IMG/VR virus record: IMGVR_UViG_2703718802_000013
Span: 1 to 9,563 of that record
Strand: one strand, 5' to 3'
Source: a virus
Lineage: Duplodnaviria; Heunggongvirae; Uroviricota; Caudoviricetes
Length of the DNA: 9,563 bases
Shown: in pieces, positions 211 through 9,563 of the stretch
Numbering within the stretch: position 1 is the first letter of the stretch
How the letters are laid out: the number at the start of each line of letters is the position of its first letter
The notes under the pieces: model-generated
What the model saw: only the letters and a program-made list of their open reading frames with translations
What the model was told of the DNA's origin: nothing
Database searches by the model: none
Translations under genes and position numbers: made by a program

Positions 211-287
211 GGGGAACATATGACACATAAAACAAAGGCGACCTGGGGCGGTCGCCAATGGGAAAACACTAAACATAAGCCCGAACA

Positions 288-503
288 TCATAGCGATTTG
301 CTGGCTGGTGGGCAATTATCTTGCTTGTTGGGGCCGTATTGTGCTGCCATTTTCATCCGTTCAGAACGTGAATATTTTTTTAGAAACTCATCAAGGACAA
401 AAGCGCATGGTGCGAATCTTTCTGATTCATGCTCTGGCGCCATATTTTCGTGCTCTCTGTCCGTTTTTTGCGATGGTGTATTGGTTGATTCTTTGTTGGT
501 CAT
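288..503 (-). CDS. small hypothetical protein (71 aa), partner gene of RHH cassette 1; paralog of 954-1181
   Basis: Track ORF starting MTN. Its C-terminal region (FVLDEFLKKYSRSER) resembles that of the 954-1181 product (FALEDFVDKYPRRLK). It sits 57 nt downstream, on the minus strand, of the RHH gene 561-734, and the intergenic element is conserved with the one before 954-1181. The SD is weak. Confidence 0.4.
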   Translation of the reverse strand: MTNKESTNTPSQKTDREHENMAPEHESERFAPCAFVLDEFLKKYSRSERMKMAAQYGPNKQDNCPPASKSL

Positions 504-560
504 TGTGTGTACCTGTAAAGCAATGCGCCGTAGTACCTCACGCCACGGCGCTGATGTTTT

Positions 561-734
561 TTATCCTTTGGGTTCAATACCGCGTTGCTGTAATTCTTTT
601 CGGAGTACTCGCTTGATCCAGGTGGCTAAAGAAGTGTCACCGTCTGCTTTCGCTGCCTCTTCAAGTTGTGCTCTGAATTCTTCTGGTAGCCGCATTTGGT
701 ATGGAGGCGATCGCTTTTCCAATGGTGTTGACAT
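561..734 (-). CDS. ribbon-helix-helix (Arc/MetJ-like) DNA-binding protein, 57 aa
   Basis: Not in the ORF track because it is under 60 aa. My minus-strand translation is MSTPLEKRSPPYQMRLPEEFRAQLEEAAKADGDTSLATWIKRVLRKELQQRGIEPKG. The beta-strand then two-helix pattern (YQMRLPEEF...LATWIKRVLRKEL) resembles Arc-type repressors. The start codon overlaps a palindromic operator. Confidence 0.5.
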   Translation of the reverse strand: MSTPLEKRSPPYQMRLPEEFRAQLEEAAKADGDTSLATWIKRVLRKELQQRGIEPKG

Positions 735-776
735 GGTAATTACCCTTAATTACTATAGTTACATGGTAATTACCAT
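733..776. promoter_or_regulatory. two copies of a palindromic operator-like site (ATGGTAATTACC at 733-744; perfect 14-bp palindrome ATGGTAATTACCAT at 763-776)
   Basis: Read directly from the sequence. GGTAATTACC is self-complementary. The two copies are 30 bp apart and overlap the start codon and presumptive promoter of the minus-strand RHH gene 561-734. Confidence 0.45.
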
Positions 777-792
777 TGTACTTACCGTTATA

Positions 793-834
793 CAAAAAAC
801 AACGCCCCGCAGTGGTGGCTCACATACGGGGCGT
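793..834 (-). terminator. hairpin (ACGCCCCG / CGGGGCGT, 8-bp stem) followed by a T-run on the minus strand
   Basis: Stem arms at 802-809 and 827-834 with a 17-nt loop. The plus-strand A-run 794-800 reads as a T-run on the minus strand. It lies downstream of minus-strand gene 954-1181. It could instead be an RNA structural element of the duplicated module. Confidence 0.4.
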
Positions 835-865
835 CTAACCAAACCATTAATTGAGGTAACGATTA

Positions 866-920
866 TGGCTATAAAAGAGCATAGCTTACTCTTTATACAC
901 ACACAAACGCCCCGGAAACG
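866..920 (+). pseudogene. 5' remnant of an Icd-like gene (first ~18 codons only)
   Basis: ATG at 866 with a GAGG RBS. The translation MAIKEHSLLFIHTQT parallels MVAVNHIPHLVHTQT at the start of the Icd-like gene 1604-1801. Homology is lost after about 55 nt and no FVWRF or TEREAR motif follows. Confidence 0.3.
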
Positions 921-953
921 GAATAATCCGTTTCATAGTTCGGTTTTGTGCAC

Positions 954-1181
954 TCATCCTGGCGGTCGGTTTTTGCCGGATTTAAGCCGCCGTGGGTATT
1001 TATCGACAAAATCTTCAAGGGCAAATTTTTCTGGTGGCATTAAGCGCGGCGCTGGTGGTGGTATTTTTGTTCTGGTTAGTTCTTCCTCAACTCTGGCGCA
1101 GGCTTCTGACTGCCTTTGCCGGATGATTTCATCATCTTGCGTTTGCGTGTCTTGTATTGGTGATAGTGTGTTGTTGGTCAT
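954..1181 (-). CDS. small hypothetical protein (75 aa), partner gene of RHH cassette 2; paralog of 288-503
   Basis: Track ORF starting MTN. It lies directly downstream, on the minus strand, of RHH-like gene 1239-1418, separated by a conserved ~50 bp element that contains a hairpin. Confidence 0.4.
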   Translation of the reverse strand: MTNNTLSPIQDTQTQDDEIIRQRQSEACARVEEELTRTKIPPPAPRLMPPEKFALEDFVDKYPRRLKSGKNRPPG

Positions 1182-1238
1182 GATACTGCCCTGTAAAGTA
1201 ATGCGCCATAGTACCTCACGCCACGGCGCTGATAGTGA

Positions 1239-1418
1239 TTATTCTGATTCTTTGGCCTTGCGACGCTGGCGGCGTTTGATTTCGCCGCGCATGGCAGTAA
1301 CGATAAATTGTGCGTCTGTTTCGTTTTCTTCTTTTACCAAATTCATTTCGCTTAAAACGTCTAGAGGTACTCTAGCAGTTTTTTGTTGTGACTTGTTGTT
1401 GGTTGTACCTGTTGGCAT
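1239..1418 (-). CDS. small DNA-binding protein, probably ribbon-helix-helix (59 aa)
   Basis: Shares the track ORF 1239-1586 frame, but I start it at the internal ATG at 1418, which is preceded by a strong SD (minus-strand AGGAGAACAGAG then ATG). The product MPTGTTNNKSQQKTARVPLDVLSEMNLVKEENETDAQFIVTAMRGEIKRRQRRKAKESE aligns loosely with the 561-734 RHH protein (RLPEEF...LATWIKRVLRKEL versus RVPLDV...AQFIVTAMRGEIKR). Confidence 0.45.
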   Translation of the reverse strand: MPTGTTNNKSQQKTARVPLDVLSEMNLVKEENETDAQFIVTAMRGEIKRRQRRKAKESE

Positions 1419-1484
1419 CTCTGTTCTCCTTACTGTTAGGTGGTGTTCAGTATACGGAGAAAAAAAAATAAAAAAAGACTTGAA

Positions 1485-1529
1485 GTGCAAGTCACCTAAA
1501 AGTAACCTAGATTTCAAGGTGACTTGCAC
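1485..1529. promoter_or_regulatory. perfect 13-bp inverted repeat GTGCAAGTCACCT - N19 - AGGTGACTTGCAC (operator-like) in the divergent intergenic region
   Basis: Read directly. It lies between the minus-strand RHH-like gene (start 1418) and the plus-strand Icd-like gene (start 1604). A TATACT -10-like hexamer for the minus-strand gene is at 1451-1456. Confidence 0.45.
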
Positions 1530-1530
1530 C

Positions 1531-1572
1531 AAAAAAACAACGCCCCACAGTGCTGGAACACATGCAGGGCGT
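1531..1572 (-). terminator. hairpin (ACGCCC / GGGCGT) with a minus-strand T-run; paralog of the 793-834 element
   Basis: Stem arms at 1540-1545 and 1567-1572. The plus-strand A-run 1531-1539 is a T-run on the minus strand. About 75 percent identical by eye to 793-834 and its flank. Function uncertain (terminator or RNA structure). Confidence 0.35.
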
Positions 1573-1603
1573 CTAACCACAAACACTATAGAGAGGTAAA
1601 TTT

Positions 1604-2706: not shown

Positions 2707-3006
2707 ATGAAACTTAAATATTCTGGCTTAACTGCCAGTGGCAACACTCACCCTAAATTTACGCGCGGTGATATTTACCGCGACCAGTACGGCGGCACGG
2801 TAATGATTAAGGGCGTGGCGGGACGGTGCGTAACTTACCGCCGTGAAGGTTACGAATATGATTGCGTGATGCCTGTTTATCAGTTCCGGCGTGATTTTTC
2901 TCTGGTACAGACCGCGCCGCATAACGTGCCCACCAGCAGGGAGAAAGCACGCGCCAATATTCAGGAAATAAAAAAGATGCTTAACGTATTCAGGGGTAAA
3001 AAATGA
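2707..3006 (+). CDS. hypothetical protein (99 aa)
   Basis: Track ORF with RBS GGAGAA about 9 nt upstream. Its stop overlaps the start of the primase gene (3003), suggesting translational coupling. Confidence 0.45.
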   Translation: MKLKYSGLTASGNTHPKFTRGDIYRDQYGGTVMIKGVAGRCVTYRREGYEYDCVMPVYQFRRDFSLVQTAPHNVPTSREKARANIQEIKKMLNVFRGKK

Positions 3007-5147
3007 AACTGGCACCGAACGTAAAACAGCAGTCACGCGGCATAAAACACAAAGAAACAGAAGTCATTATTTTTGCGGGTAGTGATGCCTGGTCACACGC
3101 AAAACAATGGCAGGAACATGACGCGCGTATGGCCGGAGATAATGAGCCTCCTGTGTGGCTTGGGGAGCAGCAGTTATCCGAACTGGATAAGCTGCAAATT
3201 GTGCCGGAAGGCAGAAAATCAGTACGCATATTCAGGGCCGGACATCTTGAGCCAGTAATGATCAAGGCGATTGGTCAGAAACTGGCGGCGGCAGGCGTAC
3301 AGGATGCAAATTTTTACCCTGAGGGAATGCACGTTCAGAAGGTGGAGAACTGGCGCGAATATCTGGCCCGTGAGCGGCAGAATCTTTCTGATGGTCTGGT
3401 TATTGAGCTTCCGGTAAAGAAAAAAGATACCGGAAGTCATAGCGATGACGAATTAAAGCCACGCGTTGAAAGTCGCGCCGATGGTGTTTTCTGGGTAACG
3501 CCCAAAGTGGATAAGCAGTCAGGCGAAATTATCCGGCCTGAGACGTGGTTATGTTCTCCGCTTGAACTACTGGGAACGGGGACGATCGGTAAAGAGCATT
3601 ACCGCGTGATGCGCTGGAAAAAAACCGCAAACCATGAAGTCATCACAATGGCGATCCCGTGTGGTGGTATCGGCGACCGTGACGGCTGGCGGTTACTTAA
3701 AGATCACGGGCTGAACGTGACAACCAACGGCAAATACAGGGCAATCCTGGCGGACTGGATGCAGTTAAGCGGAAGCCATGAGGAATGGCAGTTAAGCACA
3801 ACAACGGGCTGGCATTTTGGCGCGTACATCATGCCGGACGGTTCGATCATTGGTGATTCTGAAAAACCGATCCTGTTTACCGGAAAAAGCGCCGCGATTA
3901 ACGGTTATTCCGTGGCGGGTACGGCGGAGGGCTGGCGCGAGAGTGTGGCGCGGCTGGCTGGCGGTAATGCCTCAATGATGCTGGGTGTGGCAACGTCACT
4001 GGCAGCGCCTTTAATTGGCCTTGTGGGTGCTGACGGCTTCGGGGTGCATCTTTTCGAACAGTCATCGGCAGGTAAGACCACCACGCAGAACATCGCATCA
4101 AGTTTATGGGGAGAGCCGGACGCGCAGCGGCTGACCTGGTACGGCACGGCGTTAGGTATTGCCAATGAGGCCGAGGCCCATAATGACGGGCTTTTACCAC
4201 TGGATGAGATAGGCCAGGCCGGAAATGCGCGGGAAGTGTCAACGTCTGCTTATACGCTGTTTAACGGTTCAGGGAAATTGCAGGGGGCGAAGGATGGCGG
4301 CAACAGGGAGATCAAACACTGGCGAACGGTGGCAATCAGCACCGGAGAAATGGACGTTGAGACATTCCTCAAAAGTGAGGGGATAAAAGTTAAGGCGGGG
4401 CAGCTTGTCCGACTGCTTAACGTTCCGATGGAAAAAGCCACGAAATTTCACGAATACAGCAACGGTAAGGAACATGCTGACGCGTTAAAGGATGCCTGGA
4501 CAGCAAATCACGGGGCGGCGGGTCGTGAGTGGGTTAAATGGCTGGCAGGCCACCAGCAGGAGGCAAAGGACACGGTAAGGGAATGCCGCGAACGGTGGCG
4601 CAACCTGATACCGGAGAGTTACGGCGAGCAGGTCCACCGCGTGGGTGAACGTTTCGCCATACTGGAGGCCGCGCTTGTGCTTTCCGGTCATGTAACTGGC
4701 TGGGTCGTGCAGGAATGCCGCGACGCGATACAGCATAACTTTAATGCCTGGGTGAAAGAGTTCGGTACGGGCAACAGGGAACACAGGCAGATTATTGAAC
4801 AGGCTGAGGCGTTTCTTGCGGCCTATGGCCTGAGCAGGTTCGCCCCTGTCAATTATGACCCTGCCAGCCTGCCGATTTCAGAACTGTACGGCTACAGGGA
4901 AAGCGACGGGCGTTATGACGAGCCTGTTTTGTTTTACGTGCTGCCGGAGCCGTTTAGCTCACATGTGGCGAAGGGATTTAACAAGGATGCCGTAGCAAAG
5001 ACCCTTCATGAAGCCGGAATGCTGAGAAAACCAGCCAGCGGGCGGGGATGGCAAATCAGGACACCACGACTAAAACACCTGAAAGGGGCGCGGCTAAGAG
5101 TGTATGGCCTTTTGCTGACGCAGGACCACGATGCTGAAAATGATTAA
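3003..5147 (+). CDS. satellite-type primase/replication initiator (P4 alpha-like or PICI Pri-Rep-like, with a P-loop NTPase motif)
   Basis: 714 aa track ORF with an AGGGG RBS. It contains a deviant Walker A-like motif (SSAGKTT, encoded around 4068-4090). Its size and its position just upstream of an iteron array match replication proteins of P4-like and PICI elements. The domain assignment (DUF927-like) is from memory, not a search. Confidence 0.65.
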   Translation: MKLAPNVKQQSRGIKHKETEVIIFAGSDAWSHAKQWQEHDARMAGDNEPPVWLGEQQLSELDKLQIVPEGRKSVRIFRAGHLEPVMIKAIGQKLAAAGVQDANFYPEGMHVQKVENWREYLARERQNLSDGLVIELPVKKKDTGSHSDDELKPRVESRADGVFWVTPKVDKQSGEIIRPETWLCSPLELLGTGTIGKEHYRVMRWKKTANHEVITMAIPCGGIGDRDGWRLLKDHGLNVTTNGKYRAILADWMQLSGSHEEWQLSTTTGWHFGAYIMPDGSIIGDSEKPILFTGKSAAINGYSVAGTAEGWRESVARLAGGNASMMLGVATSLAAPLIGLVGADGFGVHLFEQSSAGKTTTQNIASSLWGEPDAQRLTWYGTALGIANEAEAHNDGLLPLDEIGQAGNAREVSTSAYTLFNGSGKLQGAKDGGNREIKHWRTVAISTGEMDVETFLKSEGIKVKAGQLVRLLNVPMEKATKFHEYSNGKEHADALKDAWTANHGAAGREWVKWLAGHQQEAKDTVRECRERWRNLIPESYGEQVHRVGERFAILEAALVLSGHVTGWVVQECRDAIQHNFNAWVKEFGTGNREHRQIIEQAEAFLAAYGLSRFAPVNYDPASLPISELYGYRESDGRYDEPVLFYVLPEPFSSHVAKGFNKDAVAKTLHEAGMLRKPASGRGWQIRTPRLKHLKGARLRVYGLLLTQDHDAEND

Positions 5148-5172
5148 TCTCGCGTGTAGGAGGTAAAAATAT

Positions 5173-5474
5173 GTTGTCCCAGTCGTCCCAGTAAGCAACA
5201 AGCAATCGTAACACATTGAATTACATAAATTTCACTTACAAAAAGTGGGACAACAGCGGGACAACATTCAGGCATTTTGGGACAACATAGCGGCATTTTG
5301 GGACGACACGACACGTATTTTTTACCGTGCTGGAGGGTGGGACAACACAAAAACCCTCATGTCGTCCCAAAATCGCCTTATGTCGTCCCACTTTGTGGAG
5401 TATGTTTTTAATAAAATCAACAGGTTAACATTAAGTGGGACAACCGGGACAACTGGGACGACGTGTTTTGTATA
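5173..5474. repeat. iteron array (about 12 copies of GGGAC(A/G)AC in both orientations) with an adjacent AT-rich stretch; presumptive origin of replication
   Basis: Read directly. Plus-orientation copies are at 5247, 5258, 5279, 5300, 5339, 5447, 5456 and about 5465. Minus-orientation copies (GTTGTCCC or GTCGTCCC) are at 5173, 5182, 5361 and 5382. AT-rich TGTATATATATAC lies at 5477-5490. It is immediately downstream of the replication gene. Confidence 0.6.
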
Positions 5475-5502: not shown

Positions 5503-5751
5503 ATGAAGTTAAACCGCAAACAACCACACTACCGCGCCATTGACCTTACAGAGCACTGGCTGAGAGTGGCGATAAAAATCATCGACCGCAACACGGTGGA
5601 AGGATACGCGAAAGCACATCCCGAACTGATAAGCGCATTCATGACCACAGCGGCGGCAAACTTTGCCACGCTGACAGAACGGGAGATTGCCGAAGCGGAA
5701 CAGGTAACAACCATCAACGTAAAAACCGGAGAGTCAGGCGATGATACATGA
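5503..5751 (+). CDS. hypothetical protein (82 aa)
   Basis: Track ORF following the iteron region. No recognisable motif. Confidence 0.45.
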   Translation: MKLNRKQPHYRAIDLTEHWLRVAIKIIDRNTVEGYAKAHPELISAFMTTAAANFATLTEREIAEAEQVTTINVKTGESGDDT

Positions 5752-5989
5752 CCGCATAGCGGAGGAACTCGAGGCGAAAGGATTTTACCGGAGGGCGGCG
5801 GCGCGATGGGGTGAAGTCATGCAGCTGGTGGAGACAGACAAGGAACGGCATCAGGTTACGATGCGACGGCTGGAATGTTCCAGGAAGGCACAGAGGCCAC
5901 CGGAGCCGCCAACGGAGAACTATGCAGACCTGAGAAATGCAGTAAATCGCACTTACGCAGACATGGGGCTGAGCAAATTAGCAGAGTAG
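5741..5989 (+). CDS. small regulator, possibly PerC-family transcriptional activator (82 aa)
   Basis: ATG at 5741 preceded by GGAGAG with a 7-nt spacer. The N-terminus MIHDRIAEELEAKGFYRRAAARW resembles my recollection of PerC-like proteins common in P4-like islands. The family assignment is tentative. Confidence 0.45.
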   Translation: MIHDRIAEELEAKGFYRRAAARWGEVMQLVETDKERHQVTMRRLECSRKAQRPPEPPTENYADLRNAVNRTYADMGLSKLAE

Positions 5990-6012
5990 GAATACCAGAA
6001 CCACACCACACA

Positions 6013-6034
6013 GCCGGAGCAATCCGGCTTTTTT
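6013..6034 (+). terminator. rho-independent terminator (GCCGGA-gcaa-TCCGGC followed by TTTTTT)
   Basis: Read directly: stem arms at 6013-6018 and 6023-6028, T-run 6029-6034, downstream of the 5741-5989 stop. Confidence 0.6.
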
Positions 6035-6040
6035 GCGCCC

Positions 6041-6082
6041 AAAAAAAGCCCGATAAGGTCAGAGGTGGCTTATCGGGCTTTT
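6041..6082. terminator. second, bidirectional-looking terminator (A7 - GCCCGATAAG ... CTTATCGGGC - T4)
   Basis: Read directly: 10-bp stem arms at 6048-6057 and 6069-6078, flanked by an A-run and a T-run. Confidence 0.6.
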
Positions 6083-6158
6083 GCATATGAGGCTTTTTGG
6101 TGCACTGACACACATGATCGGGATAATCATTTCATAATTTGCAATACAACTCAATATC

Positions 6159-6190
6159 ATTGCACAAAATGCAATCATGATTATAATCAT
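6159..6190 (+). promoter_or_regulatory. near-consensus sigma-70 promoter (TTGCAC - N16 - TATAAT) embedded in two dyad elements
   Basis: -35 TTGCAC at 6160-6165 and -10 TATAAT at 6182-6187. The dyad ATTGCA-caaaa-TGCAAT (6159-6175) overlaps the -35, and the perfect 14-bp palindrome ATGATTATAATCAT (6177-6190) contains the -10. It lies 54 bp upstream of the capsid operon start at 6244. Confidence 0.5.
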
Positions 6191-6243
6191 AACTGGATGA
6201 ACATACAGTTATGATTTTTTAAGTCAAAGAGGAATTTCTTACT

Positions 6244-6450
6244 ATGGCTGAAGAGAAAAAAGGCGGTGTTTCGGTGTACATAAGCCCCGACATCGTGAAG
6301 GCGCTCAAGGAACGCCACCAGCAGAACGTAAAAGCAGGCATTGCGGCAGGACTTGATCCGCTGGCGATGGTTGAGCCGTCAACAGGCTGGCAGGTACGCG
6401 CCTATTTACGCGCGGCGCTGGGTATGAATCAGGTTCACGGGGGTGAATAA
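6244..6450 (+). CDS. hypothetical small protein (68 aa), first gene of the capsid operon
   Basis: Track ORF with RBS AAGAGGA. Its stop overlaps the start of the capsid gene (TAATG at 6448-6452). No recognisable homolog. Confidence 0.5.
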   Translation: MAEEKKGGVSVYISPDIVKALKERHQQNVKAGIAAGLDPLAMVEPSTGWQVRAYLRAALGMNQVHGGE

Positions 6451-7505
6451 TGACAGGCAAAGCAACAGCACTTACCACTAATCAGCTTTTCACGTACCTG
6501 AATCGCGGGGATATTGCGGAATTTAAATTCAGTCCGCTGTTTACCACGCTGTTTTTCCCGAACGTGGCGACATTCAGCACCCAAAACATCATGCTGGATA
6601 CCCTGGACATTGAAGAAGTCACCATGTCGGCGTTTTGTTCGCCTATGGTTGGCAGCCAGGTCCAGCGCGATAAAGGGTACGAAACCAGCACGATTAAACC
6701 AGGCTACATGAAGCCAAAGCACGAAATCGATCCAACAAAAACCATCATGCGCATGGCTGGAGAAGATCCGGCACAGCTTAACGACCCTACCTACCGACGT
6801 ATGCGCCTTATTACTGGCAACATGCGCCGCCAGATAAACGCCATTAAAGCGCGCGTGGAATGGCTGGCGGTGAATGTGATAACGACCGGAAAAAACATCA
6901 TTGAGGGCGAAGGCATAGAACGCTATGAAATCGACTGGAAAATACCGGAAAACTGCATCATAGAGCAGGCCAAGGGTAAAAAATGGTCCGAGCATGATAA
7001 AGATATTTACGATCCAATCTATGACATCGAACTATACGCAGATCAGGCAGGTTGCCCCGCCAACGTCATGATTATGGGCGCTGAGGTATGGCGCACGTTA
7101 CGCAGCTTTAAAAAATTCCGCGAACTGTACGATCTTTCCCGTGGTTCAGAATCCGCCGCAGAACTGGCCTGTAAAAACCTGGGTGAAGTAGTGAGCTTTA
7201 AAGGCTATCTGGGCGATATTGCCCTTATCGTCTATTCCGGCAAATACACTGACAGCGACGGTACCGAAAAATATTTCCTTGAGCCTGATTTGCTGGTCCT
7301 GGGTAACACCAACAACAAAGGGCTGGTGGCCTATGGTGCGATTATGGATCAGGAAGCTGTAAGAACAGGCGCAACGCAAAACATGTACTACCCGAAAAAC
7401 TGGATTGAGGACGGCGATCCGGCGATTGAGTACGTGCAGACGCACAGCGCACCGCAGCCGGTACCGGCAGACATTCGCAAATTTGTTACCGTCAAAATTG
7501 GTTAA
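6450..7505 (+). CDS. major capsid protein, lambda gpE family
   Basis: 351 aa. Several blocks match lambda gpE as I recall it: FKFSPLF..LFF (lambda FKFDPLF..LFF), KPGYMKPKHEIDP (TPGYVKPKHEVNP), EDPAQLNDPTYRR (EDPQNLADPAYRR), SFKGYLGDIALIVYSG (SYKGMYGDVAIVVYSG), YPKNWIEDGDPA...SAP (YPKNWVTTGDPA...SAP). Confidence 0.8.
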   Translation: MTGKATALTTNQLFTYLNRGDIAEFKFSPLFTTLFFPNVATFSTQNIMLDTLDIEEVTMSAFCSPMVGSQVQRDKGYETSTIKPGYMKPKHEIDPTKTIMRMAGEDPAQLNDPTYRRMRLITGNMRRQINAIKARVEWLAVNVITTGKNIIEGEGIERYEIDWKIPENCIIEQAKGKKWSEHDKDIYDPIYDIELYADQAGCPANVMIMGAEVWRTLRSFKKFRELYDLSRGSESAAELACKNLGEVVSFKGYLGDIALIVYSGKYTDSDGTEKYFLEPDLLVLGNTNNKGLVAYGAIMDQEAVRTGATQNMYYPKNWIEDGDPAIEYVQTHSAPQPVPADIRKFVTVKIG

Positions 7506-7516
7506 CTGGGGATTCT

Positions 7517-7852
7517 ATGAACACTCCATACATTGAGTTATTTGCAGGCAGTCAGCAGGTATCAACGACGCTGGTACATTTTGCCGCTGATGCTGGCTTT
7601 ATTCAGGAATTTACCCCGCTGATGCTGTCAGACAATGGCGAGTTTAAGCCGTGGGATGGTCAGGAATCTGGCAAGGCTGTTTATCTGACTTCGTACCCCG
7701 TGGACACGTCGACGCAGAAATCAGCACAGTGTTACAAGACGGGGATATTTAATATCGCCGCCGTAAACTGGCCTGAGAGCGCCGACACTGACGCGAAAAA
7801 ATGCGCCGCCTTTGCGGGTTCTGGCGTATCCGTTCAGCCGCTGGCGCGATAA
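7517..7852 (+). CDS. head decoration protein, lambda gpD family
   Basis: 111 aa. TPLMLSDNGEFKPWDG matches lambda gpD TPLMLDTSSRKLVAWDG, and KTGIFNIAAVNWPESADTDAKKCAAFAGSGVSVQ matches [34 protein letters not shown], both from memory. Confidence 0.75.
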   Translation: MNTPYIELFAGSQQVSTTLVHFAADAGFIQEFTPLMLSDNGEFKPWDGQESGKAVYLTSYPVDTSTQKSAQCYKTGIFNIAAVNWPESADTDAKKCAAFAGSGVSVQPLAR

Positions 7853-7864
7853 GCAGGGGAAACG

Positions 7865-8278
7865 ATGGCAACGAATGAAAGCATCATGGCGCTACCGCTG
7901 GCGAGTAAATTTAAAGCAGAAGCGCGGGCAATGGCTGACAGAGGTTTATCAACCTACGAGGCCGTATATCAACTCAACAAACTGGAAGAGCAGGACAAGC
8001 CGCGCGCTGATGCGATTATGGCGCTTCATGAACATAACGACTATCAGCCGCTGTTACGTGCAATGGCAAACGTGCCATGTATTAGCGTCGATAATGCTCG
8101 TGAAATCCTGAACATGACCATAGAGCAGGAGCGCCCAAAGGTTGCGCCGGAGCTTACCGCAGCCTTTGAAAACTTTATGGACATGCACAGCCCGAAAGCC
8201 GTATCACCCGGCATGGCATACGACGGCAGAAACCAGGGCGATGAAGGCGACGTCGATCGCATACTGAAAACCATCTGA
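7865..8278 (+). CDS. hypothetical protein (137 aa), last gene of the capsid operon
   Basis: Track ORF with RBS GGGGAA, followed directly by a terminator. I see no similarity to lambda FI, FII or W. Function unknown. Confidence 0.5.
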   Translation: MATNESIMALPLASKFKAEARAMADRGLSTYEAVYQLNKLEEQDKPRADAIMALHEHNDYQPLLRAMANVPCISVDNAREILNMTIEQERPKVAPELTAAFENFMDMHSPKAVSPGMAYDGRNQGDEGDVDRILKTI

Positions 8279-8284
8279 CATAAG

Positions 8285-8307
8285 GCCGGAGAAATCCGGC
8301 TTTTTTT
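8285..8307 (+). terminator. rho-independent terminator (GCCGGA-gaaa-TCCGGC followed by TTTTTTT)
   Basis: Read directly. The hairpin is nearly identical to the terminator at 6013-6034. Confidence 0.6.
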
Positions 8308-8470
8308 ACGGGTCCTTTCCGGCATATGGACCCGTTACGGGGCGGCGACCTCGCGGTTTTTCGCTATTTATGAGCTTTTTCAGGGTGGTGGTGGTGGTTT
8401 TGTTGTTTGCTCTATCTTTATGAATAAAAAGGGAAATATAAAACCAATACACCAACCTGAAACCTTAACT
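8308..8470 (+). other. lambda-type cohesive-end site cos1: cosQ-like flank, cosN (GGGCGGCGACCT at 8340-8351), and a divergent cosB-like region
   Basis: TTACGGGTCCTTTCCGG...GTTACG-GGGCGGCGACCT-CGCGGTTTTTCGCTATTTATGA closely matches the lambda right-end/left-end junction as I recall it (TTTACGGGTCCTTTCCGG...GGTTACG-GGGCGGCGACCT-CGCGGGTTTTCGCTATTTATGAAAATTTTCCGG). Beyond about 8375 it diverges from lambda cosB, with a (GGT)n tract at 8385-8398 and AT-rich sequence. Confidence 0.7.
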
Positions 8471-8484
8471 AAGTGGGGATATTG

Positions 8485-9027
8485 ATGAAATCGCACCTGA
8501 TGAACAAAAAAACTATGGCGCAAAGCTGCCGTGTAAGTGCGACAGCGTTCGACAAGTGGGGAGTGACTCCCGTTGAACGTAAAGGCCGCGAGGCTTTTTA
8601 CGATGTTGCCAGCGTGATAGACAATCGGGTAAGCAATGCAATTGACCAGGTTACAAACGACAAAGGCGATATCGACGATGATGAACTTTTACGCGTAAGA
8701 ATCCGATTACTGACGGCCCAGGCGGAGGCGCAGGAGCTTAAAAACGAGCGCGAACGCGGCGACGTGATTGATACAGGTTTTTGCCTGTACGCGCTTTCAA
8801 AGCTGGCGAGCCAGATTTCATCAATCATGGACAGCCTCCCGCTGACTATGCAAAGGAGCTTCCCACAGATTACCCCCGCCATGCTGGATAGGCTTAAAAG
8901 GGAAGTGGTTAAAGCCTGTAATGCCAGTGCCAGAGTTGCCGACAACCTCCCACAGATACTGGCTGATTACTTGAAAGAAACAACCGGAAACGTACCGGAA
9001 AAGTTGCTACAGAAGAAAGGCGAGTAA
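8485..9027 (+). CDS. terminase small subunit, lambda Nu1 family
   Basis: Same frame as track ORF 8473-9027. LTAQAEAQELKNERERGDVIDTGFCLYALSKLASQISSIMDSLPLTMQRSFP matches lambda Nu1 LTRAQADAQELKNARDSAEVVETAFCTFVLSRIAGEIASILDGLPLSVQRRFP, and the N-terminal NKK..wHTH region and C-terminal tail also align. I chose the ATG at 8485 (GGGGA SD); the ATG at 8500 is also possible. Confidence 0.75.
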   Translation: MKSHLMNKKTMAQSCRVSATAFDKWGVTPVERKGREAFYDVASVIDNRVSNAIDQVTNDKGDIDDDELLRVRIRLLTAQAEAQELKNERERGDVIDTGFCLYALSKLASQISSIMDSLPLTMQRSFPQITPAMLDRLKREVVKACNASARVADNLPQILADYLKETTGNVPEKLLQKKGE

Positions 9028-9054
9028 CAGACGCGCAATTATTGAACAAAAATG

Positions 9055-9116
9055 AGAAAGGATCTGATAATGGCATTTTCTGGCTAAAATGCCATTATCA
9101 GATCCTTTCTTTTTTT
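9055..9116. terminator. perfect 25-bp inverted repeat (AGAAAGGATCTGATAATGGCATTTT / AAAATGCCATTATCAGATCCTTTCT) with a 6-nt loop, followed by T6
   Basis: Read directly. It acts as a strong intrinsic terminator after the Nu1-like gene. It also occupies the position, relative to the inverted cos2, where lambda has its own cosB inverted repeat. Confidence 0.6.
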
Positions 9117-9119
9117 AAT

Positions 9120-9250
9120 ATTTTCATTGTTAAACAGTCTGTTACAGAGAAGAAGAACGGATCTGACTTTTGCCGGAAAATTTTCATAAACAGATAAAAA
9201 CCGCGAGGTCGCCGCCCCGTAACGGGCCATAATTCCAGGAAGGACCCGAC
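9120..9250 (-). other. second lambda-type cos site (cos2) in inverted orientation: cosN reverse complement at 9205-9216, lambda-like cosB on the minus strand
   Basis: The minus strand reads GTTACG-GGGCGGCGACCT-CGCGGTTTTTATCTGTTTATGAAAATTTTCCGGCAAAAG...TCCGTTCTTCTTC. This matches recalled lambda cosB (CTATTTATGAAAATTTTCCGG...TCCGTTCTTCTTCG) better than cos1 does. The cosQ-like flank lies at 9217-9250 on the plus strand. Confidence 0.65.
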
Positions 9251-9281
9251 GACACCAGACTATCAGAACGATGGGGGCACA

Positions 9282-9563
9282 ATGACAGAAGCCGAACTAC
9301 TGCGATTAATCCGTCGCGTTGCCGGAATCAGCCAGCAGGCTGACGAACAGGCCACGCAGCCGGACAGCGTGACCGCCGAAAATTATGCGCGTGTGGTTGC
9401 TGAGGTGATGCGCCGTGATGGTATTGAGCTTAACGGCGTGGATATGCGCAACATACGAACCAGAGTCCTTGAGTTGCTGGCATACCGTCGCCGCGTGGAG
9501 ATGTATCGGGAGAAGGAGAAAATCACGTACCACTGGAAGAAGCCGGAGCGGTTACGGCGGTAA
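9282..9563 (+). CDS. hypothetical protein (93 aa)
   Basis: Track ORF with a G-rich RBS (GGGGG) before the ATG. It lies on the cosQ side of cos2. No recognisable homolog. Confidence 0.4.
   Translation: MTEAELLRLIRRVAGISQQADEQATQPDSVTAENYARVVAEVMRRDGIELNGVDMRNIRTRVLELLAYRRRVEMYREKEKITYHWKKPERLRR

What the first reader, a model, noticed from the sequence alone, without database searches (positions are those of the whole stretch)
6013..8307. Near-identical terminator hairpins bracket the capsid operon
GCCGGAGCAATCCGGC-T6 at 6013-6034 and GCCGGAGAAATCCGGC-T7 at 8285-8307 differ by one loop base. Reuse of the same terminator at both ends of the operon may mark module boundaries where recombination exchanged the capsid cassette.
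Basis: seen in the sequence. Interest (0 to 1): 0.2.

Follow-up and report, generated by a model that had tools for sequence, protein, structure and literature searches.

The report
Shared terminator hairpin at satellite module joints
Two copies of one small transcription-terminator hairpin flank the capsid genes of an E. coli phage satellite, and in related satellites the same hairpin sits where alternative gene modules are joined, so it marks and may help create the swap points; this is a tidy but fairly ordinary example of mosaic evolution.

Summary
GCCGGAGCAATCCGGC-T6 (6013-6034) and GCCGGAGAAATCCGGC-T7 (8285-8307) are both present. They differ by one loop base and both fold as GC-rich stems with GNRA tetraloops and a U-tract, which is the form of a canonical intrinsic terminator.

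The window is an EcCICFT073-type phage-inducible chromosomal island (PICI). T1 ends the replication operon. T2 ends a lambda-like capsid, decoration and scaffold-like operon and lies 2 nt before the cos1 site.

In about 220 related loci the same hairpin occurs up to three times per island and almost always on the coding strand. It lies after ssb or perC, after a 74-aa moron, and after the capsid operon. Twelve upstream contexts join 17 downstream contexts through it in 35 combinations. These include the HK97-type cf-PICI packaging module, a ClpP-capsid fusion, or no capsid at all.

Homology edges cluster at both flanks of T1 and at the 3' edge of T2 (8309), so both hairpins mark cassette boundaries.

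Three caveats apply:
- Alternative cassettes do not carry T2.
- No T1xT2 deletion product was found.
- Enrichment over an intergenic-only null is marginal (P about 0.04).

Whether the 22-nt homology drives the exchange is inferred, not shown. Interest is modest.

The parts
5741..5989 (+). perC-family activator gene, the last gene of the replication (early) operon that T1 terminates
   Evidence: Pfam PF06069 PerC, E = 5.8e-36. RefSeq annotation of homologues in L003 and L004.
6013..6034 (+). T1: intrinsic terminator hairpin GCCGGA-GCAA-TCCGGC plus T6. It is a copy of the island-family hairpin 'T' and forms the left joint of the capsid cassette.
   Evidence: Sequence; fold -12.6 kcal/mol, z = -4.0; terminator scan hit; homology edges at 6002-6012, 6033-6039 and 6042; junction matrix.
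6041..6082 (.). Second terminator in tandem with T1. It is bidirectional: A7, a 13-14 bp stem, then T4. It is the first element of the capsid cassette proper.
   Evidence: Fold -23.6 kcal/mol, z = -4.1. In 19-21 loci homology to the window begins at 6042, because another segment (a second cos type) lies between T and this element.
6131..6160 (+). Sigma-70-like promoter candidate for the capsid operon (TTCATA-18-TATCAT)
   Evidence: Consensus scan, 9 of 12 matches. This is weak evidence: the window has fewer such hits than its shuffles.
6185..6220 (+). AT-rich leader hairpin followed by U6, just upstream of the hyp68 ribosome-binding site. It may be an attenuator.
   Evidence: Fold of 6160-6245, z = -3.5. 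The homologue in L001 has a perfect 14-bp stem. It is conserved in L001-L005.
6244..8278 (+). Capsid operon: hyp68 (6244-6450), lambda E-like major capsid protein (6450-7505), lambda D-like decoration protein (7517-7852), and a 137-aa protein resembling the C-terminus of head protease/scaffold (7865-8278)
   Evidence: Pfam Phage_cap_E 7.3e-50 and HDPD 2.9e-17. PHROG 29, 49, 1999 and 53. RefSeq annotations.
8285..8307 (+). T2: intrinsic terminator hairpin GCCGGA-GAAA-TCCGGC plus T7. It ends the capsid operon and lies directly upstream of cos1.
   Evidence: Sequence; fold -14.0 kcal/mol, z = -5.2. Every T2 copy found by the hairpin pattern has a GAAA loop and lies between hyp137 and cos: 101 of 101 copies with 45 nt of flank on both sides. 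Homology with alternative-cassette islands starts at 8309 or 8282.
8309..8384 (+). cos1: cosQ-like GGGTCCT (8310-8316), lambda-type cohesive end GGGCGGCGACCT (8340-8351), and the start of cosB
   Evidence: 82-96% identical (mostly about 84%) to lambdoid phage cos regions, including the phage 21 cos annotated 'terminase | IHF'. It forms an inverted repeat with 9173-9248. The identity of cosQ and cosN is from my own knowledge of the lambda ends.
8473..9027 (+). Nu1-like small-terminase homologue, of the Rpp type that redirects packaging
   Evidence: Pfam Phage_Nu1 2e-22. The Rpp role is known for EcCICFT073 (PMC6739421); I did not test orthology directly.
9173..9248 (-). cos2: a second cos copy in inverted orientation
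   Evidence: Inverted repeat I1, 76 nt, 82% complementary. Homology edges at 9173-9184. Two cos sites are described for EcCICFT073.

Best explanation
Both hairpins are Rho-independent terminators, and both are copies by descent of one hairpin ('T', GCCGGA-loop-TCCGGC-T5-9). This family of E. coli phage satellites, the EcCICFT073-type PICIs and EcCIEDL933-type cf-PICIs, uses T at the 3' end of successive rightward transcription units.

T1 stops the replication operon (DUF4222, primase, hyp82, [ssb], perC). The capsid cassette is then a self-contained, moron-like unit made of a bidirectional terminator, a promoter, a leader hairpin and four genes. It ends in T2, which also shields the adjacent cos1 site (cosQ starts 2 nt after the T-tract) from read-through.

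Every unit ends in the same roughly 22-nt sequence. T therefore sits at the joints where units are gained, lost or swapped between islands. Crossovers within or beside this short homology are the most likely way the joints were made. Possible agents are RecA or a helper-phage recombinase acting between co-resident or co-induced islands.

Shown here: the structure, position, orientation, family-wide reuse, many-to-many joining and a precise T-to-T cassette indel. Inferred: termination activity, insulation of cos, and a causal role for hairpin homology in recombination.
For: Terminator anatomy:
- 6-9 bp GC-rich stems, GNRA tetraloops and a U6-7 tract, with z = -4 to -5.
- Placed 24 and 7 nt after stop codons.
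- 187 copies lie on the coding strand against 1 on the other strand in 137 de-duplicated loci.
- At equivalent positions some islands carry G.U-compatible transitions (L035, L037), a compensated stem insertion (L148, L335), or an unrelated terminator (GGCGGCGATAGCCGCC-T7) directly before cosQ. This points to selection on structure and position.

Common descent rather than chance:
- None of 200 shuffles gives two sites.
- The hairpin has no exact match in 50,697 phage records.
- It is found in only 1,216 of 5,426 E. coli genomes.
- All 5 inspected hits are PICIs, with the hairpin lying after ssb or perC.

Joints:
- 262 copies link 12 upstream to 17 downstream contexts in 35 combinations.
- The same replication module is joined through T to the lambda-E-type capsid operon, the HK97-type cf-PICI module, a ClpP-capsid fusion, or directly to cos and the last gene.
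- Loop variant and T-tract length travel sometimes with the upstream and sometimes with the downstream partner. This is what crossovers inside the hairpin would produce.
- A 364-nt [mor74 + T] unit is precisely present or absent between T copies.
- Homology edges cluster at T1 and at the 3' edge of T2, P = 2.8e-5 against a uniform null.
- In capsid-less or fusion-type islands T is followed immediately by a cos site. The T2-cos adjacency therefore looks ancestral, and the capsid operon looks like an insertion between T and cos.
Against: - There are no transcript 3'-end or reporter data, so termination is inferred from sequence.
- Against a null restricted to intergenic DNA the clustering of edges is marginal (P = 0.044). 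Selection for intact genes alone would place most joints in intergenic DNA.
- T2 is never a breakpoint among islands that share this capsid operon.
- Alternative cassettes lack T2, so hairpin homology cannot explain exchange at the right end.
- No T1xT2 recombinant (perC-T-cos1-rpp) was found in 5,426 genomes for this perC allele, or in 68 Rpp-anchored loci.
- 22 nt is at the lower limit for RecA-dependent recombination (my own knowledge).
- Loop differences are single substitutions that could recur independently.
- The same 21-mer arises in more than 120 unrelated genomes, so the sequence is an easily reached terminator.
- The loci are related, not independent.
Confidence: 0.7

Rival explanations
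1. The hairpin is a passive marker only. Joints fall next to the terminators because only recombinants with intact genes and operons survive. Each terminator is inherited with its neighbouring module, and the hairpin sequence plays no part in recombination.
For: Enrichment over an intergenic-only null is weak (P = 0.044). The right-hand exchange at 8309 involves cassettes that lack T2. Other strong edge clusters lie at gene boundaries with no hairpin: 5732-5739, 9028-9034 and 9277-9282.
Against: The same 16-nt stem-loop is kept while both flanks vary independently: 35 combinations of 12 by 17 contexts. Under pure illegitimate joining the terminator should co-vary with one side only. Loop and T-tract length segregate with either side. 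The [mor74 + T] indel is exact to the repeat unit.
Confidence: 0.25
2. Convergence or chance. T1 and T2 are independent terminators that happen to share a favourable stem and GNRA loop.
For: The sequence is therefore reached repeatedly.
Against: Those genomes have one copy per locus, whereas these islands have up to three within 2.5 kb. None of 200 shuffles gives two copies. The hairpin is restricted to PICIs within E. coli and has no exact match in phage records. Short flanking similarity (a CACA motif upstream; T-tract then ACGGGTCC or GCGGGTCC downstream) extends beyond the stem.
Confidence: 0.03
3. T is a sequence-specific regulatory site, for example a target of a helper-phage or island antiterminator, an RNA-binding protein or an RNase. 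On this view its exact sequence is kept for that reason, and termination and joint formation are secondary.
For: The stem is nearly invariant across hundreds of copies, although any GC-rich stem would terminate. The capsid operon also has a leader hairpin that suggests regulated read-through.
Against: The islands differ by only 5-10% overall, so an unchanged 12-nt stem is expected under ordinary purifying selection. Structure-preserving variants and a wholly different hairpin occupy the same positions. The loop varies freely (GCAA, GAAA, GTAA, GAAAA, GAAG, ACAA). No candidate binding protein was identified.
Confidence: 0.07

Closest known systems
Rho-independent (intrinsic) transcription terminators of enterobacteria
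   Same: GC-rich 6-9 bp stem, stable GNRA tetraloop, U-tract of 6-7, placed just after a stop codon and co-oriented with the gene. T1 is followed by a second, bidirectional terminator.
   Different: The same hairpin sequence is reused up to three times within one small element and across a whole family of elements. Activity was not measured.
Mosaic joints, 'boundary/linker sequences' and morons of lambdoid phages (modular theory of Susskind and Botstein; Hendrix and Juhala; my own knowledge)
   Same: Alternative modules are joined at short conserved intergenic sequences. An optional gene (mor74) or operon has its own terminator, and probably its own promoter, and is inserted between otherwise collinear genes.
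   Different: Here the conserved joint is a terminator hairpin specific to a satellite family. It has no exact match in 50,697 phage records. It links classical PICI and capsid-forming PICI packaging modules.
EcCICFT073 (classical Gram-negative PICI) and EcCIEDL933 (cf-PICI)
   Same: alpA, DUF4222, primase, perC, a lambda-like capsid and decoration gene pair, two cos sites flanking a Nu1-like Rpp-type gene, and a conserved last gene. L086 is EcCIEDL933 itself and carries T twice.
   Different: The three PICI papers I searched for the word describe shared int/alpA/rep genes and different packaging modules but contain no occurrence of 'terminator', so the joint is not discussed there. This window is a different mosaic: a DUF927 primase, no ssb, and its own perC allele.
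Integron attC sites and other hairpin recombination sites
   Same: Repeated imperfect palindromes at the 3' end of each cassette in an array.
   Different: There is no integron-type integrase. The palindrome is a perfect short stem with a U-tract and no extrahelical bases, and cassettes are whole transcription units with varied joints on the right. I rejected this as a membership.

Membership tests
Intrinsic (Rho-independent) terminator | GC-rich stem of about 5-14 bp with a 3-8 nt loop that folds stably | tested here: met
   6-9 bp stems with GCAA or GAAA loops, -12.6 and -14.0 kcal/mol, and 0 of 200 shuffles as stable.
Intrinsic (Rho-independent) terminator | Run of U immediately 3' of the stem | tested here: met
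   T6 at 6029-6034 and T7 at 8301-8307. T4-T9 in 262 related copies.
Intrinsic (Rho-independent) terminator | Located downstream of, and co-oriented with, a transcription unit | tested here: met
   24 nt after the perC stop and 7 nt after the hyp137 stop. 187 copies on the + strand against 1 on the - strand.
Intrinsic (Rho-independent) terminator | Transcripts end in the U-tract (termination activity) | not testable with these tools
   No transcript data are available. This needs Term-seq, 3'-RACE or a reporter assay.
EcCICFT073-type PICI (phage satellite) | int, alpA and pri-rep backbone with an origin 3' of the primase | tested here: met
   alpA-like HTH gene at 1-210, primase at 3003-5147 and iteron-like inverted repeats at 5166-5469. 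The integrase lies just outside the window in L002 and L004, whose left part is 99% identical.
EcCICFT073-type PICI (phage satellite) | Lambda-like capsid and decoration genes, two cos sites and a Nu1-like Rpp gene | tested here: met
   Pfam Phage_cap_E, HDPD and Phage_Nu1. cos copies at 8309-8384 and 9173-9248 match lambdoid cos. This layout is described for EcCICFT073 in PMC6092414 and PMC6739421. I did not check direct orthology to c1499, c1500 or rppA.
EcCICFT073-type PICI (phage satellite) | Induction, packaging and high-frequency transfer by a helper phage | not testable with these tools
   Experimental property.
Moron-like or mosaic cassette bounded by terminators | Presence/absence or replacement polymorphism between otherwise collinear relatives, with sharp joints | tested here: met
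   mor74 + T indel. The capsid operon is replaced by the cf-PICI module, by a ClpP-MCP fusion, by a divergent E/D cassette, or by nothing. Edges at 6002-6042 and 8309.
Moron-like or mosaic cassette bounded by terminators | Own promoter | tested here: inconclusive
   Only a 9-of-12 consensus match at 6131-6160. The window has fewer such matches than its shuffles.
Integron-like attC cassette array | Integron integrase and attC-type imperfect palindromes with extrahelical bases | tested here: not met
   No such gene appears among the annotated island genes. The hairpin is a perfect 6-bp stem with a U-tract.

The most novel reading that the evidence does not exclude
The hairpin is more than a terminator. 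On this reading it is a family-specific short-homology 'linker' kept at the end of every transcription unit. Helper-phage or host recombinases use it to shuffle packaging modules (classical Rpp/cos, lambda-like capsid, HK97-type cf-PICI, ClpP-capsid fusion) among co-resident satellites. That would explain how classical PICIs and capsid-forming PICIs interconvert on one replication backbone.
Probability: 0.3. Interest if true: 0.5.

Novelty: new member of a known kind. Interest (0 to 1): 0.3.

Why it matters
E. coli carries these satellites in a large share of genomes: 2,306 of 5,426 complete genomes match part of this window. The satellites come in versions that either hijack helper capsids or build their own.

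The analysis shows that all versions share one replication backbone and are joined to their different packaging modules at the same 22-nt terminator. This gives a concrete, testable site for how such hybrids arise. It also provides a practical landmark for delimiting modules in satellite annotation and for engineering synthetic PICIs, for example cassette swapping at T. A third point is that a terminator abuts cosQ in many, though not all, of these islands, which suggests that cos is kept free of read-through transcription.

None of this overturns current understanding. It is a clean instance of modular evolution at intergenic boundary sequences.

Tried and rejected
- A capsid-protein scan of one genome per species (genome contigs) found no relative, so I took relatives from IMG/VR and the E. 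coli genome set instead.
- A chimeric query (perC-T1 fused to cos1) looked for a precise hairpin-to-hairpin loss of the capsid operon. No record covered 80% or more of it. The test is limited to this perC allele. Rpp-anchored loci also gave no capsid-less perC/ssb-T-cos1-rpp island.
- Origin of the hairpin from helper phages is rejected. There is no exact match in 50,697 phage records. Only the adjacent cos region matches phages.
- Concerted evolution of T1 and T2 within an island is rejected. T2 is always GAAA, while T1 varies among GCAA, GAAA, GTAA, GAAAA and GAAG.
- A breakpoint inside hyp137 (7870 to 8220) turned out to be an internal deletion unrelated to T2.
- Contig ends at 8278 in three IMG/VR loci (L027, L029, L046) fall at the hyp137 stop codon, not at real joints. 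I take these to be provirus trimming at a gene end, but I did not test that.
- An integron-like reading is rejected (see the membership test).
- The 459-aa ORF at 220-1599 is spurious. RefSeq annotates small reverse-strand genes there.
- Literature searches found no paper discussing a conserved terminator at PICI module joints. These searches covered open-access texts only.
Full report
**1. The observation**

- T1 is GCCGGAGCAATCCGGC at 6013-6028, followed by T6 at 6029-6034.
- T2 is GCCGGAGAAATCCGGC at 8285-8300, followed by T7 at 8301-8307.
- They differ at one loop base (C6020 versus A8292) and by one T.

A search allowing three mismatches finds only these two sites, and none of 200 dinucleotide-preserving shuffles gives two. 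Each folds as a 6-bp GC-rich stem that A-U or G-U pairs extend to 7-9 bp. Each closes a GNRA tetraloop (GCAA or GAAA). The energies are -12.6 and -14.0 kcal/mol, with z = -4.0 and -5.2.

The consensus scan lists T1 but not T2. My untested reading is that the T2 stem extends into its own T-tract and leaves too few T in the scored tail.

**2. What the window is**

The genes are alpA-like (1-210), DUF4222 (2707-3006), a DUF927 primase (3003-5147), hyp82 and PerC (5741-5989). Next come hyp68, a lambda E-type major capsid protein, a lambda D-type decoration protein and a 137-aa protein resembling the C-terminus of a head protease or scaffold. A Nu1-like small-terminase homologue and a conserved 93-aa gene follow.

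The 76 nt after T2 (8309-8384) match lambdoid cos regions, including the annotated phage 21 cos. They contain the lambda cohesive end GGGCGGCGACCT at 8340-8351. A second copy lies inverted at 9173-9248.

This layout is the published architecture of EcCICFT073-type PICIs: capsid c1499, decoration c1500, two cos sites and Rpp. In that element, deleting the capsid or decoration gene gave no phenotype (PMC6092414, PMC6739421). Parts of the window occur in 2,306 of 5,426 complete E. coli genomes, always as mosaics.

**3. Position of the hairpins**

T1 lies 24 nt after the perC stop. After it come a strong bidirectional terminator (6041-6082, -23.6 kcal/mol), a weak promoter-like site (6131-6160) and an AT-rich leader hairpin with U6 (6185-6220). 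The operon follows. T2 starts 7 nt after the last stop codon, and its T-tract ends 2 nt before the cosQ-like GGGTCCT.

**4. Related islands**

I collected about 220 related loci: 10 annotated E. coli regions and about 210 IMG/VR loci. The IMG/VR loci were anchored on the capsid protein, the last gene or the Nu1-like gene.

The hairpin family 'T' (GCCGGA, 3-6 nt loop, TCCGGC, T4-9) occurs up to three times per locus. It is on the coding strand in 187 copies and on the other strand in 1. It is found in three places:
- after the replication operon, following ssb or perC;
- after an optional 74-aa gene (mor74) that sits between two T copies;
- after the capsid operon, where it is T2. Every T2 copy the hairpin pattern found has a GAAA loop and lies next to cos: 101 of 101 copies that have 45 nt of flank on both sides.

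The first position is shared by islands with quite different packaging regions:
- the lambda-E-type operon;
- the complete HK97-type module of EcCIEDL933 (L086 is that element);
- a ClpP-capsid fusion;
- a divergent E/D cassette;
- nothing at all (L087).

**5. Joints**

Left side. At least seven unrelated upstream sequences end in the same hairpin and then continue into the same downstream sequence. Over 262 copies, 12 upstream contexts are joined to 17 downstream contexts in 35 combinations.

The loop variant and the T-tract length travel sometimes with the upstream partner and sometimes with the downstream one. Two examples:
- GAAAA always follows one ssb allele whatever lies downstream.
- GCAA with T5 nearly always precedes the cf-PICI module whatever lies upstream.

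This is what crossovers on either side of the loop would produce. L010 and L016 differ by a precise 364-nt unit made of mor74 plus one T.

In 137 de-duplicated loci, homology edges to the window fall at 6002 (14), 6009-6012 (14), 6042 (19) and 6033-6039 (18).

Right side. Islands that share this capsid operon never break at T2. Their right edges are at the cos arm (8373-8385) or at the end of the Nu1-like gene. Islands with a different capsid cassette regain 84-88% identity exactly at 8309 (28 loci) or at 8282 (2 loci). So the 3' edge of T2 is the right boundary of the exchangeable capsid cassette.

In capsid-less and fusion-type islands, T after ssb or perC is followed directly by a cos site. 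In ClpP-capsid islands an unrelated hairpin (GGCGGCGATAGCCGCC-T7) occupies the same place before cosQ. Terminator-then-cos is therefore a recurrent arrangement, though not universal: the divergent E/D cassette islands have no terminator before cos. The capsid operon looks like an insertion between T and cos that left T on both sides.

**6. Controls and limits**

- The exact hairpin has no match in 50,697 phage records. Among plasmids only a few E. coli records match the T2 region well; one overlaps a gene annotated as phage head-tail connector, and I did not inspect them.
- It occurs in 1,216 of 5,426 E. coli genomes. All five hits I inspected are PICIs.
- The same 21-mer also occurs once each in more than 120 unrelated genomes of many phyla. 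It is therefore an easily evolved terminator, and sequence identity alone is weaker evidence than it looks. The within-element repetition and the family restriction carry the argument.
- Six of 30 edge clusters lie within 12 nt of a hairpin. P = 2.8e-5 against a uniform null, but only 0.044 against a null confined to intergenic DNA.
- The loci are related, not independent.
- I found no T1xT2 recombinant.
- Variants at T positions include G.U-compatible transitions, a compensated stem insertion and a few disruptive singletons. This fits a structural RNA terminator rather than a sequence-specific site.

**7. Explanation and comparison**

Most likely these are ordinary intrinsic terminators of common descent that end successive transcription units of the satellite. 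Because each unit ends in the same 22 nt, they coincide with the joints of module gain, loss and exchange, and may promote those events.

This matches what is known of mosaic boundaries and terminator-flanked morons in lambdoid phages (my own knowledge). The new detail is that one satellite-specific hairpin links the common replication backbone to both classical PICI and cf-PICI packaging modules. The three PICI papers I searched for the word contain no occurrence of 'terminator', and the broader literature searches found no paper on such a joint.

Termination activity, insulation of cos and a causal role of the homology remain untested.

**8. Verdict**

This is a new example of a known kind, of modest interest.

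Noticed in passing
window 8309-8384 and 9173-9248: Two lambda-type cos sites in inverted orientation flank the Nu1-like (Rpp-type) gene. In about 26-29 related loci the segment between them is missing or replaced, with homology edges at 8373-8385 and 9173-9184. In L004 a piece (8309-8458) appears inverted. Two cos sites are known for EcCICFT073, but their role as boundaries of a replaceable or invertible segment is not discussed in the papers I read.
   Followed up: partly
window 6185-6220: An AT-rich hairpin followed by U6 lies between the promoter-like site and the hyp68 ribosome-binding site. In L001 it has a perfect 14-bp stem. It looks like a leader terminator or attenuator, which suggests the capsid operon is controlled by antitermination.
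   Followed up: partly
window 7865-8278: The 137-aa last gene of the capsid operon matches the C-terminal 75 residues of PHROG 53 (head maturation protease). This recalls the lambda C/Nu3 scaffold arrangement. RefSeq calls it hypothetical or 'head-tail connector'. Several islands carry an internal deletion (7870-8220).
   Followed up: no
window 9049-9116: A near-perfect 31-nt palindrome (20-bp stem) with T-runs on both sides lies directly after the Nu1-like gene. It is a strong bidirectional terminator-like element.
   Followed up: no
window 270-1600: An approximately 700-bp unit is duplicated in tandem: direct repeats of 75 nt (81%) and 48 nt (88%) spaced 678-738 nt apart. It carries small reverse-strand genes (hypothetical plus YlcI/YnfO family in RefSeq relatives). 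The 459-aa forward ORF over this region is spurious.
   Followed up: no
window 5166-5469: A cluster of inverted and direct GGGACAAC/GTCGTCCCA-type repeats lies just 3' of the primase gene. This fits the iteron-type replication origin described for PICIs.
   Followed up: no
L335 and L336, about 5780-5830 (before the Nu1-like gene): In ClpP-capsid fusion islands an unrelated terminator (GGCGGCGATAGCCGCC-T7) lies directly against cosQ (ACGGGTCC), in the same position as T2. Terminator-cos adjacency therefore recurs with non-homologous hairpins.
   Followed up: partly
L152-L231 listed (genome-contig hits; the call reports 120 stretches): The exact 21-mer GCCGGAGNAATCCGGCTTTTT occurs once each in more than 120 unrelated genomes (Bacteroidota, Bacillota, Pseudomonadota and others). 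I estimated roughly one match by chance, assuming uniform base composition. This points to convergent evolution of the same terminator hairpin.
   Followed up: no
L014 and about 20 similar loci, between T (about 6396) and the bidirectional terminator (about 6593): Some islands carry a second-type cos-like site immediately after T and then the whole capsid cassette with its own T2 and cos1. These islands therefore hold up to three cos-like sites.
   Followed up: no
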